From a virus (Duplodnaviria; Caudoviricetes): 64,000 nucleotides of DNA. Each line of letters opens with the position of its first letter. Position 1 is the first letter of the stretch. Under the pieces are notes generated by a model that saw only the letters and a list, made by a program, of their open reading frames with translations, ran no database searches and was not told the origin of the DNA. The stretch covers positions 1-64,000 of the IMG/VR virus record IMGVR_UViG_3300038393_001263; one strand, 5' to 3'. This document shows, piece by piece, positions 2,165 to 7,061 of this stretch. A program made the position numbers and the translations under genes.

Positions 2165-3274
2165 TTGAAAGCGACGTTTTCCCGCAAGCCCCTGCTCGAC
2201 GCCTTCAACACCGTCTCCAGCGTCGCGCCGACGCGATCGCCCAAGCCGATCCTTCAGAATGTAAAGCTGTCGCTGCGTGACGGCGAGGCAAGCCTGTCCG
2301 CCACCGATCTTGAGGTGGCAATCACTCATCAAGTCGATGGCGTGTCCCTGATCGATGACGGGCAAGCGATCCTCCCGGCCATTCGATTTGGCTCCATCCT
2401 CAAGACGTCGTCTGATGATGAACTGACCATTGAAGTGGCCGACGACAAGTTGATGATCCGTGCCAAGCGATCGAAGTTCGCGCTGCCGCGAGAAGACCCG
2501 GATCTCTTTCCATCCATCGGCGAATTCGAGAGCGAGAACTACAAGTCGCTGGCCGCCGGGGACATTCGGAAGTTGGTGCGAAGGACGCACTTCGCGGCCG
2601 ATCTCGACTCGGCTCGATACGCACTCGGCGGCGCGTTGGTCGAGTACACCGACGATTCGCTAATCTTCGTCTGCACCGATGGACGGCGGCTCGCGAAGGC
2701 TTCCGTGCCAGCCGAGACAGTCGGCGATCTGGACTTCGGACAGCCGGTTCTTCCGCTCAAGTCAATGCGTCTCATTGACAAAGCAATCAACGACGATGGT
2801 GATTTAGCCCACTTCGCTATCAAAGTCGGCACATCGGCGATGGTTCGAACGTCGCAGGCTACGGTCTACGCTCGTTTGGTCGAAGGCCGGTTTCCACGAT
2901 ACGCCGACGTGTTTCCAAAGACATGCACGCTGTCCGTTCCGATCGTGGCCGGCGCGTTCCGGTCGGCGATCGATCAGGCTGCGGTCGTTACCAGCGACGA
3001 GAGCCGTGCGGTGTCGTTCCGGTTCTCGAAAACCGGAATCGAACTGAGCAGTCGATCGGCAGATATCGGCGAATCCAAGGTTGAGCTTCCGATGGAGATC
3101 GACGCGGAGGAAGACCTGGTCGTCGATATGGACAACCGATTCGCGGGCGAAGGCATCAAGTCGTTGGATCCAGAGAGCGAGTTGGCCGTCGATCTGGTCG
3201 ACTCCAAGTCGCCGGTGACATTTCGGTTGGGTGATGAATTCACCTACGTCGTGATGCCGCTGACGCGGGACTGA
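2165..3274 (+). CDS. dnaN: DNA polymerase III beta sliding clamp
   Basis: 369 aa; motifs RSPKPILQNV, LSATDLE, RYALGG, VCTDGRRL, RLVEGRFPRY and C-terminal YVVMPL; AAGGAG before the TTG start. Confidence 0.95.
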   Translation: MKATFSRKPLLDAFNTVSSVAPTRSPKPILQNVKLSLRDGEASLSATDLEVAITHQVDGVSLIDDGQAILPAIRFGSILKTSSDDELTIEVADDKLMIRAKRSKFALPREDPDLFPSIGEFESENYKSLAAGDIRKLVRRTHFAADLDSARYALGGALVEYTDDSLIFVCTDGRRLAKASVPAETVGDLDFGQPVLPLKSMRLIDKAINDDGDLAHFAIKVGTSAMVRTSQATVYARLVEGRFPRYADVFPKTCTLSVPIVAGAFRSAIDQAAVVTSDESRAVSFRFSKTGIELSSRSADIGESKVELPMEIDAEEDLVVDMDNRFAGEGIKSLDPESELAVDLVDSKSPVTFRLGDEFTYVVMPLTRD

Positions 3275-3319
3275 GTGAAACACTAGGAAGCACTGCGAGA
3301 AATCGTGGTGAATAGGACG

Positions 3320-3432
3320 GGTTTTGCACGGCGTGGCACAGTTGGGCACGGCTGGGCTCGGTCCGGCTTGGGTGTTCATCACTTCTGGCGACGGTCTTAA
3401 ATGTGGCCGTCGTCGGGATCTCCGAAAGGAGA
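3320..3432 (+). ncRNA. Putative guide RNA unit 1
   Basis: ggtTT tgcAC ggcGT ggcAC agtTG ggcAC ggcTG ggcTC ggtCC ggcTT gggTG; hairpin 3385-3416 with loop ttaaatgt; hairpin tctcc-gaaa-ggaga. Confidence 0.75.
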
Positions 3433-3436
3433 AAGC

Positions 3437-3552
3437 GGCGTGGCGAGGGTTGGTGGGGCCGGGCATGGCATGGCATGGCGCGGCGAGGGTTCTACGAACA
3501 TCTGCGGGCGTCTTTAAATGTAGGCGTTCGCGGGTTGTCTCCTGCGGGGGAC
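3437..3552 (+). ncRNA. Putative guide RNA unit 2
   Basis: NN = GT GA TT GG CG AT AT AT GC GA (TT); loop ttaaatgt; hairpin gtctcc-tgcg-ggggac. Confidence 0.75.
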
Positions 3553-3562
3553 TGACGGCGCT

Positions 3563-3679
3563 AGCGGGGTTTGGCTTGGATGGGCATGGTGAGGTTGGGC
3601 ATGGTGAGGCAAGGAATCTTCGGATTATCTGCGGGCGCTCTGAAATGGGCGTCCGTGGGTTGCTCGCGGAAACGCGGGT
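3563..3679 (+). ncRNA. Putative guide RNA unit 3
   Basis: NN = GG TT TT TG AT GA TG AT GA AA (AT); loop tgaaat; hairpin gctcgcg-gaaa-cgcgggt. Confidence 0.75.
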
Positions 3680-3683
3680 AGAG

Positions 3684-3797
3684 GGTTCGGCTTGGTGTTG
3701 CCAGGCGCGGCATGGCTGGGCAAGGCGTGGTTCGGGCGTTCATCGCATCTGCAATCGGCCTTGAATGCGGCTGATTGTGGGTTGTCCCGAAAGGGGC
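3684..3797 (+). ncRNA. Putative guide RNA unit 4
   Basis: NN = TC TT GT CA GC AT TG AA GT TC (CG); loop ttgaatgc; hairpin gtccc-gaaa-ggggc. Confidence 0.75.
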
Positions 3798-3801
3798 AGG
3801 A

Positions 3802-3906
3802 GGTTTGGATTGGCAACGCATTGCGTGGCACGGCAGTGCTAGGCGAGGCAAGGTTCCATCGGGCGGCTTAAACGTGTCGCCCGATGGGTTGTCCGCGAGA
3901 GCGGAC
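3802..3906 (+). ncRNA. Putative guide RNA unit 5
   Basis: NN = TT TT AA AT GT AC AG TA GA AA (TC); hairpin catcgggcggc-ttaaacgt-gtcgcccgatg; hairpin gtccgc-gaga-gcggac. Confidence 0.75.
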
Positions 3907-3916
3907 TGGTGGTTCT

Positions 3917-4020
3917 GGCCTGGCTCGGCATGGCAGTGCAGGGCGTGGTCGGGCGCGGTGCGGCAAGGGTTCTTCGGAACATCCACGTGCCTTCTTAAAT
4001 GCGGGGGTTCGTGGGTTGGC
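3917..4020 (+). ncRNA. Putative guide RNA unit 6
   Basis: NN = CT TC AT AG AG GT CG GC GC AA (TT); loop ttaaatgc; second hairpin degenerate. Confidence 0.7.
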
Positions 4021-4051
4021 TGACAGATTGAACGACAACAGGAGCAAGCGA

Positions 4052-4567
4052 ATGTTCAATGTGAGCGAGGAAGTGAAAGCGAAGGTTGAAGCGGCGTTGT
4101 CCGTCCTACGTGAATACAAGCGAGGCGACCGCGTTCCGCACGAGGAACTTGAGAAGGCGACCGGGTTGAATCGGGACTGCGGCACCGACTACTACCGGAT
4201 CGTCATGAAGGCCCGCAAGAGGCTCCGCGACGAGGACGGAATCTGGTCGTGTTATGAACAGTCGGAAGGCTTCCATCTCTACACGGAGCGGGAGACCTTG
4301 ACCGAGGAACCGAAGTTCCGAAGCAAGAAAGCCCGCAGGCAGATGCGTTACGTCGTGAAAGCCGCGACGGCGATCCCGACGAACTCGCTGTCGTTCACCC
4401 AGAGGCGACTTCAGGAGGCGGTCGTCGACAGCGCGAAGGAGATGGCGCGCAAACTGTCGGCCAAGGCGGAAGTGGCCGAACAGGCGTCCCAGCCCTACAA
4501 GGGAATGCCGATCCGCAAGGTGGAGTCGTTGACTCCTCCGGTCGTTCAAACGAGTGCTGCTGTTTGA
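4052..4567 (+). CDS. Accessory protein inside the repeat locus; possible winged-helix DNA-binding N-terminus and helical C-terminus
   Basis: AGGAG about 10 nt before ATG 4052 (the longer ORF call from 3884 runs through the repeats); GDRVPHEELEKATG resembles an HTH; basic, 171 aa. Confidence 0.75.
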   Translation: MFNVSEEVKAKVEAALSVLREYKRGDRVPHEELEKATGLNRDCGTDYYRIVMKARKRLRDEDGIWSCYEQSEGFHLYTERETLTEEPKFRSKKARRQMRYVVKAATAIPTNSLSFTQRRLQEAVVDSAKEMARKLSAKAEVAEQASQPYKGMPIRKVESLTPPVVQTSAAV

Positions 4568-4615
4568 TTCTTTCTTTCCAGTTTTGATTTCTACAAGGCA
4601 AGGGGTTTTCATCGA

Positions 4616-5284
4616 ATGGCTACGACGTACGAGTTCGAGTTCAAGGGCAAGCAACCGCTCCTCATGCACCAGGACAATATCGCCGGCCAGGAACTCATCA
4701 AGCGATGGCAGAAGGATCCGAAAAACAAGGCTGTTTCGGAGAAGGGCGACGACCGCTCGCCCGCATGGACGTGGCAGATTTACCTGTACACCGGAGACGG
4801 CAAGGTCGTCATGCCTTCGGAGTGCGTCATGTCGTGCATCCGAAAAGCTGGAGCGATGATCGAGATCCCAGGCGGCAAGCGCGGCAAGACGTTCAAGGAC
4901 GCGACGCAGTACGGGATCATCCCCGCCGACGAATCGTTCCAGTTCTTCTGCTGCGGCAAGCCTCTGGAACTTGAGCCGATCACGGCTCTATGGGAGGACA
5001 ACGACTTCGCGAAGCATCAGGATCTAGCCAAGAGCCTTGGCTTCGAGTTGTTCGTGAAGCGGGCGAAGATCGGCCAGTCCAAGCACATCCGGGTCCGCCC
5101 GATGTTCAAGGATTGGAGCATCAAGGGGTCGTTCGTCGTCACTGAGCAAGCGATCACGAGCCCGATCCTCGCCGAAATGCTGATGCTCGCGGGCGACCGC
5201 GTGGGGCAAGGCGACTGGCGTCCGTCGTCGAAGACGCCGGGGCCTTACGGCACGTTCAACGTCAATCTGAGTCAGGTTGCATAA
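4616..5284 (+). CDS. Cas7/RAMP-like RNA-binding protein (putative guide-RNA effector)
   Basis: 222 aa; N-terminal strand YEFEFKGKQPLLMH; VMPSECVMSCIRKAG resembles the Cas7/Csm3 IPxSSLKG.IR box; C-terminal Gly-rich loop AGDRVGQGDWRP..GPYGTF; flanked by the repeat arrays. Confidence 0.75.
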   Translation: MATTYEFEFKGKQPLLMHQDNIAGQELIKRWQKDPKNKAVSEKGDDRSPAWTWQIYLYTGDGKVVMPSECVMSCIRKAGAMIEIPGGKRGKTFKDATQYGIIPADESFQFFCCGKPLELEPITALWEDNDFAKHQDLAKSLGFELFVKRAKIGQSKHIRVRPMFKDWSIKGSFVVTEQAITSPILAEMLMLAGDRVGQGDWRPSSKTPGPYGTFNVNLSQVA

Positions 5285-5286
5285 GC

Positions 5287-5397
5287 GGACAGGCGCGGCG
5301 TGGGTGGGAAAGGCACGGCTCGGCCGGGCTGGGTGAGGGCGTAAGCATCTGCGGCCAGCCTTGAACGTGGCTGGTCGCGGGTTGTCTCGAAAGAGAC
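5287..5397 (+). ncRNA. Putative guide RNA unit 7
   Basis: NN = CA GC GT TG AA AC TC CG TG GA (CG); loop ttgaacgt; hairpin gtctc-gaaa-gagac. Confidence 0.75.
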
Positions 5398-5407
5398 TGG
5401 TGTTGTG

Positions 5408-5522
5408 AGACTGGCATGGCCAGGTCGGGCGAGGCATGGCGTGGCAAGGCCAGGCGTGGGCGTCCATCGCTTTCGCGTGCAGTCTTAAATGCGGCTGCAT
5501 GCGGGATCTCTCAGAAGAGAGG
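5408..5522 (+). ncRNA. Putative guide RNA unit 8
   Basis: NN = (CT) AT CA CG GA AT GT AA CA GT (CG); loop ttaaatgc; hairpin tctctc-agaa-gagagg. Confidence 0.75.
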
Positions 5523-5528
5523 GCAATA

Positions 5529-5667
5529 GGCTCGTACAGGCGCGGTTCGGCGGGGCCTGGCATTGCGAGGCGAGGTCAGGTGCGGCGAGGCCTGGTTTGG
5601 CATGGGTGTTCATCACATTCACGGTCGATCTTAAATGCGGTCGGCCGTGGGTTGTCCCGGAAGGGAC
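5529..5667 (+). ncRNA. Putative guide RNA unit 9 (longest tract, 14-16 pentamers)
   Basis: NN = (TC CA) GC TC GG CT AT GA GA CA GC GA CT TT AT (TG); loop ttaaatgc; hairpin gtccc-ggaa-gggac. Confidence 0.75.
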
Positions 5668-5673
5668 TTTCGA

Positions 5674-5769
5674 GGTGGGGTATGGCTGGGCACGGCATGG
5701 CTATGCTTGGTCCGGTTTCGCCACTGCCGGTCTTGAATGTGGCCGGCAGTGGCATGCTCCTCTAGGAGT
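5674..5769 (+). ncRNA. Putative guide RNA unit 10 (shortest tract, 9 pentamers)
   Basis: NN = GG AT TG AC AT TA TT CC TT; hairpin gccactgccggtc-ttgaatgt-ggccggcagtggc; hairpin gctcc-tcta-ggagt. Confidence 0.72.
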
Positions 5770-5773
5770 AAGT

Positions 5774-5895
5774 GGCCGGGCGAGGTACGGCTTGGCAAGG
5801 CAACGCGTGGCGGGGTTTGGCGGGGCATGGGCGTTTATCGCATCTGCCGTCGATCTGAAATCATGGTCGGCGGCGGGTTGCCCGCGCAAGCGGGC
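5774..5895 (+). ncRNA. Putative guide RNA unit 11
   Basis: NN = CG GA AC TT AA AA GT GG TT GG AT (CG); loop tgaaatcat; hairpin gcccgc-gcaa-gcgggc. Confidence 0.75.
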
Positions 5896-5899
5896 AGAT

Positions 5900-6011
5900 G
5901 GCTTGGTTTGGCACGGCGCGGCTGGGCACGGCTAGGCCCGGCGAGGACTCTTCGGAGTATCTGTGGTTGATCTTGAATGTGGTCAATCGCGGGTTGTCGG
6001 TGAAAACCGAC
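5900..6011 (+). ncRNA. Putative guide RNA unit 12
   Basis: NN = TT TT AC GC TG AC TA CC GA (CT); loop ttgaatgt; hairpin gtcggt-gaaa-accgac. Confidence 0.75.
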
Positions 6012-6021
6012 TGTCGGCGCT

Positions 6022-6102
6022 GGTTTGGTCTGGCCTTGCATGGTCCGGCTAGGCGCGGCTTGGCAAGGGCAACGCACGGTCAACCCCACGATCGTGCGTT
6101 GC
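6022..6102 (+). ncRNA. Putative guide RNA unit 13 (terminal, divergent scaffold)
   Basis: NN = TT CT CT AT CC TA GC TT AA (CA); single 13-bp hairpin gcaacgcacggtc-aaccccac-gatcgtgcgttgc. Confidence 0.65.
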
Positions 6103-6186
6103 AAATTTCCTTGCCAGACGCTATTATTTTTAGGAAGGAGGCGCGTCGCCATCCAAATCCGTGAGATTCATCAAGAGGTTGAGGAC

Positions 6187-6675
6187 ATGCAGGAGCCAGA
6201 ATCGACGACCGGGCGGAAGTACAAGTCGGTGGAGGATTACGTCGAGATCGCGAACGATTTGATCAAGAAGTACGGCGGGATTCCGGGGTCCAGGTGGCTG
6301 ATCGACAACGGGCTGAACGCCTTCTACACCTGCATGCGGAAGCACCCGGAGCCGTTCAAGGACATGCCGCGAGTGAAAGGGGAGCCGATGCCGCTGGATG
6401 ATCCGTCGTTGCGCAGGACGCCGAAGCATCGGCCCGACCTGCTGCTCGTGTCCGAGATCCTGGATTTCGCACAGTGCAGCATGCCCGACGACTGGCGGCT
6501 CGACCTCAGTTTCGACAACGGCGGTTGCGGCGTCAGCGTGATCGCGCCGAACGGATTCCGCCGTGTCGTGCCGGTCGCCGAGGGTCGCGGGCTCATCGAT
6601 TCGATCGAGATCCACGTCAACCGGGCGAGGAAGGAAAACGGACTGGAACCCGTGAAATGGGAGACCGCCAAGTGA
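6187..6675 (+). CDS. Hypothetical protein
   Basis: GAGG before ATG 6187; 162 aa. Confidence 0.6.
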   Translation: MQEPESTTGRKYKSVEDYVEIANDLIKKYGGIPGSRWLIDNGLNAFYTCMRKHPEPFKDMPRVKGEPMPLDDPSLRRTPKHRPDLLLVSEILDFAQCSMPDDWRLDLSFDNGGCGVSVIAPNGFRRVVPVAEGRGLIDSIEIHVNRARKENGLEPVKWETAK

Positions 6676-7061
6676 GCGTGATTGAGCAGTTGGCCGAGCA
6701 AACATTGAAGAACGTCGAAGACGAGCCGAACAGGGGCGAGCCCAAGGGCGACGTGATCCTGACGTTGGCAGTGATTTCAGCGGTTATCAAACTATTAATC
6801 CTGGCATACGACTGCTGGAAGGCGTCCCCCGGATCGTCATTGAAGAAATGCCAGAACCCGAACTGGCTCCAGCGATTCCGCATGAGGCGCGTCGTCCGCA
6901 CGGTGCTCAACGTCGAAGGCGTCAGCGAGAAGATGGAAGAGGCGTGCGCGGCCTTGCTCAAGACCGGCAAGGCGATCACGCAGGATCAACTCATGGCGGC
7001 GGTGATCGAGAACCAGAACGACCGGACGCTGCCGGACCTGGCGGCGAAGTATGGGGTGTAA
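6672..7061 (+). CDS. Hypothetical membrane-anchored protein
   Basis: GTGA overlap; hydrophobic segment VILTLAVISAVIKLLILAY. Confidence 0.6.
   Translation: MSVIEQLAEQTLKNVEDEPNRGEPKGDVILTLAVISAVIKLLILAYDCWKASPGSSLKKCQNPNWLQRFRMRRVVRTVLNVEGVSEKMEEACAALLKTGKAITQDQLMAAVIENQNDRTLPDLAAKYGV

What the first reader, a model, noticed from the sequence alone, without database searches (positions are those of the whole stretch)
3375..6102. Conserved two-hairpin scaffold with RNA-level covariation 3' of each tract
Seen: hairpin 1 has an 11-13 bp stem whose sequence differs in every unit while pairing is kept, with many G-T pairs. Its loop is TTRAAYGY in 10 of 12 cases. A GGGTT-like linker leads to hairpin 2, whose loop is GNRA in 8 of 11 cases. 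Tract-to-scaffold junctions fall mainly into two classes, GGGYG-TTCATC and GG(G/A)NT-CTTCGGA. Units 1 and 7 have no scaffold upstream, so the scaffold belongs at the 3' end. Inference: G-U pairs and GNRA loops mean selection acts on RNA structure, probably a processing site, loading handle or 3' protection.
Basis: partly seen in the sequence, partly recalled or inferred. Interest (0 to 1): 0.75.

Follow-up and report, generated by a model that had tools for sequence, protein, structure and literature searches.

The report
Hairpin tails of phage VIPR guides
The repeated hairpin scaffold is real and under RNA-level selection, but it is the structured 3' tail of the guide RNAs of a VIPR system, a CRISPR-related phage DNA-silencing system described in 2026 preprints; here the tail is three hairpins, not the published pseudoknot.

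Summary
Twelve copies of a 54-67 nt scaffold lie on the + strand, each directly after a tract of in-phase GGY-NN pentamers. Each copy folds the same way, and base pairing is kept through compensatory changes.

I add a third helix.

The locus is a VIPR system, as described in bioRxiv 10.64898/2026.04.26.720920, .720927 and 2026.10.15.759431:
- The 222-aa gene at 4616-5284 is Vipr. It matches PDB 36pp "SUSP1 Vipr protein" at E 4.6e-18 and keeps the GGY-contact residues.
- The 13 tracts are vrRNA guides.
- The 171-aa neighbour is a winged-helix-like accessory gene.
- The scaffold is the vrRNA 3' tail.

This scan has also noted VIPR many times on other DNA (51 findings in at least 47 genomes).

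Three things are not in the texts I read:
- The tail architecture is H0-H1-H2, with no pseudoknot.
- The tail varies in sequence within one array.
- It sits between every pair of adjacent guides in arrays with no promoter-like site, while some terminal guides in relatives lack it. This suggests a role in separating or processing the guides.

The tail type is confined to a narrow clade of metagenomic phages. I found no natural targets.

The parts
3315..3374 (+). vrRNA guide tract 1 (GGY-NN pentamers, in phase)
3370..3433 (+). tail 1: H0 (GUG-UUCAU-CAC), H1 (loop UUAAAUGU), H2 (GAAA)
   Evidence: R1 63.6 bits; MFE z -5.4
3437..3491 (+). guide tract 2
3487..3552 (+). tail 2: H0 (GUUC-UAC-GAAC), H1, H2 (UGCG loop)
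   Evidence: R1 46.8 bits; z -4.5
3563..3617 (+). guide tract 3
3613..3678 (+). tail 3: H0 (UUCG loop), H1 (variant loop UGAAAU), H2 (GAAA)
   Evidence: R1 26.8 bits; z -4.4
3684..3738 (+). guide tract 4
3734..3797 (+). tail 4: H0, H1 (UUGAAUGC), H2 (GAAA)
   Evidence: R1 84.6 bits (seed); z -3.5
3802..3851 (+). guide tract 5
3842..3906 (+). tail 5: no H0; H1 (UUAAACGU), H2 (GAGA)
   Evidence: R1 29.2 bits; z -4.3
3912..3971 (+). guide tract 6
3967..4020 (+). tail 6 (last of array 1, just before the vap gene): H0 (UUCG) and H1 only, no H2
   Evidence: R1 33.4 bits; z -3.0
4052..4567 (+). 171-aa accessory gene (vap-like), N-terminal winged-helix-like fold plus long helices
   Evidence: No Pfam or PHROG match. 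Homologues lie next to vipr in all close relatives, upstream or downstream. AF2 pLDDT 81 with weak wHTH matches.
4616..5284 (+). vipr (RAMP/Cas7-like guide-binding protein), 222 aa
   Evidence: PDB 36pp_D SUSP1 Vipr, E 4.6e-18. 29.6% identity to the SUSP1 gene over 94% of its length. phrog_4652. AF2 pLDDT 93; best folds are Cas7/Csm3.
5287..5341 (+). guide tract 7
5337..5397 (+). tail 7: weak H0 (GC-GUAA-GC), H1 (UUGAACGU), H2 (GAAA)
   Evidence: R1 74.3 bits (seed); z -5.3
5413..5462 (+). guide tract 8
5458..5521 (+). tail 8: H0, H1 (UUAAAUGC), H2 (AGAA)
   Evidence: R1 83.9 bits (seed); z -3.6
5529..5608 (+). guide tract 9 (longest, 14-16 pentamers)
5604..5667 (+). tail 9: H0, H1 (UUAAAUGC), H2 (GGAA)
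   Evidence: R1 86.2 bits (seed); z -4.2. L166:3651 has the same H1 arm behind an unrelated guide.
5674..5718 (+). guide tract 10
5714..5769 (+). tail 10: no H0; H1 (UUGAAUGU), H2 (UCUA)
   Evidence: R1 37.4 bits; z -5.9
5774..5833 (+). guide tract 11
5829..5895 (+). tail 11: H0 (UUUAU), H1 (variant loop UGAAAUCAU), H2 (GCAA)
   Evidence: R1 53.0 bits; z -5.0
5900..5949 (+). guide tract 12
5945..6011 (+). tail 12: H0 (UUCG), H1 (UUGAAUGU), H2 (GAAA)
   Evidence: R1 44.8 bits; z -5.2
6022..6071 (+). guide tract 13 (no H0-H1-H2 tail)
6069..6102 (+). terminator-like hairpin (13 bp, then a T-rich run) that closes array 2 and stands in place of a tail for tract 13

Best explanation
What it is. The scaffold is the structured 3' tail of the guide RNAs (vrRNAs) of a phage VIPR system. 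The operon runs dnaN, then six vrRNAs, then vap, then vipr, then seven vrRNAs, then a terminator, all on the + strand.

How the system works, taken from the literature on SUSP1 and not shown here. One Vipr protomer binds each GGY-NN pentamer, flips out GGY and presents NN. The filament then reads double-stranded DNA by the NNx (1-nt skip) rule and silences it.

The tail in this clade. It is three consecutive hairpins.
- H0 is short. Its 5' arm is the last pentamer, which reads GGR rather than GGY.
- H1 has 13-14 bp, a conserved AUCUG/CGGGU base with U.G pairs, a freely covarying inner stem and a conserved UURAAYGY loop.
- H2 has 5-7 bp and mostly a GNRA loop.

Inferred roles.
(a) H0, starting at a GGR pentamer that the pyrimidine pocket of Vipr should reject, ends the filament and fixes its register. 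This is the job done by the pseudoknot cap in SUSP1.
(b) H1-H2 is a separator between guides. The arrays are back to back with no promoter-like site inside them. The module would stop Vipr polymerising into the next guide, protect the 3' end, and probably mark where a nuclease (host or phage) cuts the polycistronic precursor into RNAs of about 100-145 nt.
(c) The conserved H1 loop and wobble pairs are most likely a protein-contact surface.

Shown here: the structure, its strand, its conservation, its position and the identity of the system. Inferred: roles (a) to (c).
For: System identity.
- A Vipr family profile hits PDB 36pp_D 'SUSP1 Vipr protein' at E 4.6e-18, with the motifs HxD, RVRP and GDWRP aligned. 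These correspond to SUSP1 H17, R138 and D177-W178-R179, which contact GGY (10.64898/2026.04.26.720927).
- tblastn to phage SUSP1 gives 29.6% identity over 94% of the query.
- The AF2 model (pLDDT 93) is closest to Cas7/Csm3.
- There are 13 in-phase tracts of 9-16 pentamers, all on the + strand. Position frequencies are G .92, G .99, Y .87, then two near-uniform positions. There are none elsewhere in the 73.6-kb record, and shuffles give 0.3.

Tail structure. Model hits fall on the + strand only.

Separator role.
- In the window and six relatives, every tract followed by another tract has an H1(+H2) module between them: 11/11 in the window, and L166 3/3, L165 3/3, L161 1/1, L162 4/4, L167 3/3, L170 2/2.
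- Terminal tracts often lack it. Window tract 13 and the last L165 tract end in a terminator hairpin. L162, L167 (two) and L170 (two) end in AAGG/GGGG followed by a U-run before a gene.
- The terminal window unit 6 lacks H2.
- L165 has an H1 directly after vipr and before the first tract (5671-5704).
- No promoter-like site lies inside the arrays.

GGR junction. The last pentamer is GGG or GGA wherever H0 is present. SUSP1, L094, L169 and L042 also have GGG at the junction.

Tail and guide evolve separately. The same H1 arm occurs in window unit 9 and in L166:3651, behind unrelated guides.
Against: - There are no RNA-end or expression data for this phage, so processing and even transcription are inferred.
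- No natural target was found for any of the 13 guides, so function is not shown for this locus.
- Some terminal tracts in L161 and L166 do carry H0-H1(-H2) before a gene, so the module is not strictly internal.
- The promoter scan covers sigma-70-type consensus only, and the host's promoters may differ.
- The A5 alignment is fitted to the model, and the 27 tails are related by descent, so the shuffle controls overstate significance. The slid-partner control and the independent MAFFT alignment A1 support the structure all the same.
Confidence: 0.85

Rival explanations
1. H1-H2, or the whole tail, is mainly a docking site for the accessory winged-helix protein (Vap, 4052-4567) or another factor that joins the Vipr filament. 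It is not mainly a cap or processing signal. This overlaps with the main reading.
For: The H1 loop (UURAAYGY) and three U.G pairs stay conserved while the inner stem drifts, which is the usual pattern of a protein-recognition hairpin. The vap-like gene co-occurs with this tail type in all close relatives.
Against: The predicted fold is a DNA-binding type, and the matches are weak (best E 0.038). The preprint describes the vap genes as appearing to be involved in DNA interaction (10.64898/2026.04.26.720920). L174 has a distant homologue of this vap (25% identity) but none of these tails.
Confidence: 0.15
2. The module is a self-cleaving ribozyme that cuts the array into single guides, as in the hammerhead-interspersed VIPR arrays.
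For: Ribozyme-separated vrRNA arrays exist in VIPR types I and V (10.64898/2026.04.26.720920, fig. S19). Here too the guides are back to back with no promoters in between.
Against: No ribozyme family matches even at E up to 10. The three hairpins follow each other with 0-2 nt linkers, so there is no multi-helix junction or conserved core. The only conserved unpaired bases are the 8-nt H1 loop.
Confidence: 0.04
3. Each hairpin pair is a transcription terminator or attenuator for a separately transcribed guide gene.
For: The hairpins are stable and GC-rich (-21 to -39 kcal/mol). The SUSP1 vrRNA loci have room between units for their own promoters.
Against: Neither H1 nor H2 is followed by a U-run, and the only terminator-like site is at 6069-6102. 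Only 3-15 nt separate H2 from the next tract, which leaves no room for a promoter.
Confidence: 0.04
4. The feature acts at the DNA level, as cruciforms, recombination sites or protein-binding iterons in the replication module.
For: The locus lies beside dnaN in the replication module.
Against: The conserved U.G pairs would be C.A mismatches on the other strand. Model hits are on the + strand only. Stem sequence is free while pairing is kept. The Vipr family has been shown to bind such RNAs (literature).
Confidence: 0.02

Closest known systems
vrRNA 3' tail of type II VIPR (Escherichia phage SUSP1); bioRxiv 10.64898/2026.04.26.720920, .720927 and 2026.10.15.759431
   Same: It has the same position, directly after the last GGY-NN pentamer, with a GGG pentamer at the junction. 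It has the same partner, a Vipr RAMP protein with the same GGY-contact residues. It has the same logic: a variable guide capped by a structured 3' element.
   Different: The SUSP1 tail is an H-type pseudoknot of about 35-40 nt that is nearly invariant between units (and the papers). Here the tail is 54-67 nt of three consecutive hairpins with no pseudoknot, column identity between units is only about 63%, and pairing is kept by compensatory changes. The covariance model of this tail finds nothing at the vrRNA tails of SUSP1, even with filters off. The units here are back to back with no promoter-like site in the arrays.
CRISPR repeat hairpin / 3' handle of class 1 crRNAs (Cas6-processed)
   Same: A structured element alternates with variable guides in a long array next to a RAMP gene. 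It plausibly defines where the precursor is cut and stays on the mature guide.
   Different: CRISPR repeats within an array are near-identical in sequence, whereas these differ in almost every stem position. No Cas6, cas1 or cas2 is present. Guides are pentamer-coded, not contiguous spacers. The only Rfam CRISPR-repeat match is sub-threshold (21 bits against a 35-bit cut-off) and on the wrong strand.
Hammerhead-ribozyme-interspersed and staggered vrRNA arrays (VIPR types I and V; figs S18-S19 of 10.64898/2026.04.26.720920)
   Same: They are alternative published solutions to the same problem: releasing single guides from a contiguous array.
   Different: No ribozyme is detectable here. Guides do not overlap; each is separated from the next by a tail plus 3-15 nt.
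Simpler tails in more distant Vipr relatives (L094, L169: one short hairpin; L048: an H1-like hairpin with a CUGAAAUUA loop only)
   Same: The H0-like hairpin that starts in the last GGG pentamer is shared with L094 and L169. An H1-like hairpin with a related loop is shared with L048.
   Different: Only the narrow clade with Vipr at least about 54% identical to this one combines H0, H1 and H2.

Membership tests
VIPR system (Vipr + vrRNA) | Vipr protein: a single-RRM RAMP homologous to SUSP1 Vipr | tested here: met
   The profile of 44 homologues hits PDB 36pp_D 'SUSP1 Vipr protein' at E 4.6e-18. tblastn to SUSP1 gives 29.6% identity over 94% of the query. The AF2 model's best matches are Cas7/Csm3.
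VIPR system (Vipr + vrRNA) | GGY-contact residues: a beta-sheet His, a thumb Arg and the G-loop D-W-R | tested here: met
   H18, R159/R161 (RVRP) and D200-W201-R202 are invariant in 44 homologues. They align with the HAD, YRP and GDWRP motifs of SUSP1. Their roles are taken from 10.64898/2026.04.26.720927.
VIPR system (Vipr + vrRNA) | vrRNA tract: 9-16 in-phase GGY/NN pentamers with hypervariable NN, flanking vipr | tested here: met
   There are 13 tracts of 9-16 pentamers on the + strand only. Frequencies are G .92, G .99, Y .87, and NN is near uniform.
VIPR system (Vipr + vrRNA) | Structured 3' tail directly after the tract | tested here: met
   12 of 13 tracts carry the tail; covariation and folding are shown.
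VIPR system (Vipr + vrRNA) | Adjacent accessory gene (vap) with a predicted DNA-interaction role | tested here: inconclusive
   The 171-aa gene always lies next to vipr in close relatives. It has a winged-helix-like N-terminus, but the PDB matches are weak. Similarity to SUSP1's downstream gene is not convincing (E 0.016 over 19 aa).
VIPR system (Vipr + vrRNA) | vrRNAs are expressed as RNAs of about 100 nt and co-purify with Vipr | not testable with these tools
   This needs small-RNA sequencing and a pull-down.
VIPR system (Vipr + vrRNA) | Guides match natural DNA targets by the NNx (1-nt skip) rule | tested here: inconclusive
   No match exceeded the shuffled-guide maxima in the phage's own 73.6 kb plus 1.4 Mb of held loci. 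Two 16-base seeds scanned against IMG/VR gave only chance-level extensions.
SUSP1-type pseudoknot tail | H-type pseudoknot of about 35-40 nt, near-invariant between units | tested here: not met
   The MFE fold is three separate hairpins in all 12 units. By eye I found no loop-to-flank complementarity. Model R1 finds no SUSP1 tail. Column identity between units is 63%.
Ribozyme-interspersed vrRNA array | A recognisable self-cleaving ribozyme (hammerhead) between guides | tested here: not met
   The Rfam scan at E up to 10 over 2500-7000 gave no ribozyme family.
tRNA-like guide tails (noted by this scan in another VIPR phage) | A cloverleaf or mini-tRNA module | tested here: not met
   ARAGORN finds no tRNA or tmRNA in the window. 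There is no closing acceptor-like helix.
CRISPR array | Near-identical direct repeats with contiguous spacers and cas genes | tested here: not met
   The scaffold copies differ in sequence. The only CRISPR-repeat match is sub-threshold and on the - strand.

The most novel reading that the evidence does not exclude
The H1-H2 module is a true separator between guides: a structured element that is recognised and cut by Vipr, Vap or a host RNase. That would make this array a structural half-way house between VIPR and CRISPR arrays, with a structured repeat alternating with each guide. Under this reading, the unusual divergence of stem sequence within one array, with pairing kept, is itself selected. 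It could prevent recombinational collapse of the array, or let the phage escape rival vrRNAs that target the repeat-tail junction; such vrRNA-targeting guides are reported in 10.64898/2026.10.15.759431.
Probability: 0.15. Interest if true: 0.6.

Novelty: new variant of a known kind. Interest (0 to 1): 0.3.

Why it matters
VIPR is a very recent discovery. In the preprints I read, only the SUSP1 pseudoknot tail has been analysed structurally.

This locus, with at least five related metagenomic phages, shows that the tail is not one conserved element. It appears to be modular. A short capping hairpin that starts at a GGR pentamer seems widely shared. A long hairpin with a conserved loop and a GNRA hairpin are added where guides lie back to back.

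That yields testable hypotheses about three things:
- how Vipr filaments are terminated and kept in register;
- how multi-guide precursors are cut without ribozymes or separate promoters;
- which tail features matter when vrRNA arrays are engineered.

It does not change the picture of what VIPR is.

Tried and rejected
1. Rfam scan of 2500-7000 at E up to 10: only sub-threshold noise.

2. ARAGORN on the whole window: no tRNA or tmRNA.

3. A degenerate motif for the H1 base, loop and linker, scanned against IMG/VR: 35 single hits. None was confirmed by the covariance model, so they are chance matches.

4. The search for related loci with the single Vipr protein in viral contigs: nothing. The family was reached instead through a (GGCNN)6 pattern scan, a protein search and contig look-ups.

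5. My early idea of a TRAP-like ring-protein or sponge RNA was dropped once the PDB hit named Vipr.

6. Pseudoknot: I looked by eye for complementarity between the H0 or H1 loops and the flanks and found none. This was not searched exhaustively.

7. Target search by the NNx rule in the phage's own genome and in 1.47 Mb of held loci: no score above the shuffled-guide maxima.
- Seed from guide 9 in IMG/VR: the best extensions match 23 of 32 bases; most lie in one conserved tape-measure motif, and the other half of the guide does not match.
- Seed from guide 8 in IMG/VR: 10 hits in unrelated frames. The best reaches 18 of 20 bases, but that is expected by chance.

8. Typing the system as one of the published types I-VII: not possible, because the papers' data tables are not held. 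It is closest to type II by layout (vipr plus a DNA-binding-type vap) and by being alignable to SUSP1 Vipr.

Full report
**What is in the sequence**

The window is the first 64 kb of a 73.6-kb IMG/VR virus record. The stretch between dnaN (2165-3274) and the gene at 6187 holds two non-coding arrays on the + strand. They flank two genes, at 4052-4567 and 4616-5284.

Reading the arrays gives 13 tracts. Each is made of 9-16 pentamers held in one unbroken phase. Over 145 pentamers the position frequencies are G 0.92, G 0.99, C/T 0.87, and then two positions with near-uniform composition. Tracts of this kind occur 13 times on the + strand, never on the - strand and nowhere else in the 73.6 kb. Shuffled genomes give 0.3 on average.

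The loop motif occurs at 3397, 3514, 3641, 3761, 3868, 3995, 5361, 5485, 5631, 5733, 5856 and 5973.

**Checking the observation**

The H1 loop is TTRAAYGY in 10 of 12 copies. The H2 loop is GNRA in 8 of 11. The two junction classes are real.

I make three refinements.
- The conserved flanks AUCUG and CGGGU pair with each other, with U.G wobbles, so H1 has 13-14 bp.
- The "junction classes" are a third, short hairpin, H0. It is either GYG-UYYAU-CRC or a 4-bp stem with a UUCG or UAC loop. Its 5' arm is the last pentamer of the tract.
- There is a 13th tract (6022-6071). It ends in a terminator-like hairpin (6069-6102) rather than the scaffold. Unit 6, the last before the first gene, has no H2.

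The statistics support the structure.
- On an unbiased MAFFT alignment of the 12 copies, 98.2% of H1 cells pair and 12 of 14 pairs change on both sides. No shuffle out of 500 reaches this, and sliding the partners by 1-3 columns drops pairing to 38-52%.
- Each copy folds alone into the same three-hairpin minimum-energy structure, with z between -2.95 and -5.88.
- A covariance model seeded on four copies finds all 12 copies, on the + strand only. It also finds 15 tails in five related metagenomic contigs.
- On those 27 rows, 97.8% of cells pair and 21 of 22 pairs show double changes (H0 3/3, H1 13/14, H2 5/5).

There are caveats. That alignment is fitted to the model, and the rows are related by descent. 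Three U.G pairs are conserved, which fits RNA and not the complementary strand.

**What it is**

By tblastn, 26 of them carry a homologue of the 222-aa gene. The two loci I read had that gene immediately beside the tracts.

The protein family is large, with at least 1354 members and no Pfam domain. A profile of 44 members hits one solved structure, PDB 36pp "SUSP1 Vipr protein", at E 4.6e-18. The HxD, RVRP and GDWRP motifs are aligned. The AF2 model (pLDDT 93) is closest to Cas7 proteins of type VII and type III CRISPR systems.

A literature search then gave four 2026 preprints.
- The discovery paper is 10.64898/2026.04.26.720920. VIPR systems consist of a Vipr RAMP protein plus vrRNAs made of 9-16 GGY/NN repeats followed by a structured "3' tail". 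They are found mainly in phages. They recognise double-stranded DNA through the NN dinucleotides with one skipped base per repeat, and silence competing mobile elements.
- The structure paper is .720927. One protomer binds each repeat. GGY is read by H17, R138 and D177-W178-R179. [quoted passage not shown] DNA unwinding proceeds from the tail-proximal end towards the 5' end.
- The competition paper is 2026.10.15.759431. It treats a shared consensus tail as what makes a vrRNA competent for Vipr complex formation.
- The fourth is 2026.10.21.760802. It recovers VIPR arrays from 5-nt periodicity.

The locus meets every sequence-level criterion of a VIPR system.

The 171-aa gene is the likely accessory gene (vap).
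- Homologues lie next to vipr in all close relatives, either upstream or downstream.
- The model has a winged-helix-like N-terminus followed by long helices.
- Structural matches to wHTH regulators are only weak.

**How this tail differs from what is published**

SUSP1 tails are H-type pseudoknots of about 35-40 nt and are nearly identical between units. Here the tail is 54-67 nt of three consecutive hairpins with linkers of 0-2 nt. Column identity between units is only about 63%, and I saw no pseudoknot. The model finds nothing at the vrRNA tails of SUSP1, L094 or L042, even with filters off.

The tail type has a narrow distribution.
- Contigs whose Vipr is 54-67% identical to this one have it: L161, L162, L165, L166 and L167.
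- L170, at 56% identity, has only a variant of H1.
- Among 120 other viral loci with pentamer tracts, only L048 has a weak relative. That is an H1-like hairpin alone, with a CUGAAAUUA loop.
- None of 31 loci from cellular genomes with Vipr at 36-48% identity has it.
- More distant relatives carry other tails: a single short hairpin that starts in a GGG pentamer (L094, L169), other hairpin sets (L174, L181), a pseudoknot-like element (L042), or about 700 nt of uninterrupted tract (L052).

The GGG or GGR pentamer at the tract-tail junction recurs in every clade I looked at, SUSP1 included.

**Most likely mechanism**

*Shown.* The element is an RNA structure at the 3' end of each guide. It is conserved by compensatory change, and it lies within a + strand operon that has no promoter-like site inside the arrays and one terminator-like hairpin at the end.

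*Inferred, step 1.* The structure paper says the Y pocket sterically excludes purines. A GGR pentamer should therefore not be bound in the normal way. Together with H0 it would end the filament and fix its register. This is the role of the pseudoknot cap in SUSP1.

*Inferred, step 2.* H1-H2 separates the guides.
- In the window and six relatives, every tract that is followed by another tract has an H1(+H2) module between them: 11/11 in the window and 16/16 in the relatives.
- Terminal tracts often have none. They end in a terminator hairpin or run straight into a U-run and a ribosome-binding site.
- Terminal units tend to lose H2.
- L165 even has an H1 in front of the first tract of an array.

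This pattern fits a boundary, processing and 3'-protection element better than an obligatory loading handle. It is not absolute, however: L161 and L166 keep tails before genes.

*Inferred, step 3.* The conserved loop and wobble pairs of H1 suggest a protein contact, but the partner is unknown.

Tails and guides evolve separately. Window unit 9 and L166:3651 share an identical H1 5' arm but have unrelated guides.

**What failed**

No natural target was found by the NNx rule. I tested the phage's own genome, 1.47 Mb of held loci and two IMG/VR seed scans. The exact-pattern tool cannot tolerate mismatches, so this is weak negative evidence. The system could not be assigned to one of the seven published types because the data tables are not held.

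**Verdict**

The kind of element is already described, and this scan has met VIPR repeatedly: 51 findings in at least 47 genomes.

What remains of interest is a distinct, modular tail architecture with strong covariation, and positional evidence for a role in separating guides. I rate this as a new variant of a known kind, of modest interest.

Noticed in passing
L168:1940-2599 and L168:2905-3567: A related metagenomic contig carries two Vipr-like genes close together. The second ends in a GEWRP G-loop motif and came up when I aligned supposed vap genes. It may be a two-paralogue VIPR locus.
   Followed up: no
L052:6300-7010: About 700 nt of uninterrupted in-phase GGCNN pentamers with no tails, downstream of a vipr-like gene ending GDFRPTYGRF and upstream of a RusA-like gene. 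It probably belongs to the published 'staggered array' class.
   Followed up: no
L042:650-1200 (- strand): Another VIPR array whose near-identical tails look like a hairpin plus a pseudoknot: ATTGC in the first loop is complementary to GCAAT at the 3' end. This was seen by eye only.
   Followed up: no
L048:2600-2960 and 4090-4310: A VIPR locus whose tails are a single 12-13 bp hairpin with a CUGAAAUUA loop. This resembles the variant H1 loops of window units 3 and 11 and suggests H1 is older than the H0-H1-H2 combination.
   Followed up: partly
window 4568-4615: A T-rich 48-nt spacer lies between vap and vipr, with no obvious Shine-Dalgarno sequence. Another first-reader note also mentions it.
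   Followed up: no
window 5529-5608 (guide 9); L219, L227, L235, L237: The 3' half of guide 9, read as NNx, spells codon positions 1-2 of EEQAELFI. This matches a conserved tape-measure-protein motif (YKPIEEQAELFIR) in a set of related viral contigs. The 5' half of the guide does not match (23 of 32 bases), so I treat it as chance.
   Followed up: yes
window 6099-6127: The only sigma-70-like promoter match in 3100-6300 lies right after the array-2 terminator hairpin, in front of the gene at 6187.
   Followed up: no
L167:616-801: A relative carrying this tail type encodes a small protein with a weak CsrA (PF02599) hit a few genes upstream of its VIPR locus.
   Followed up: no
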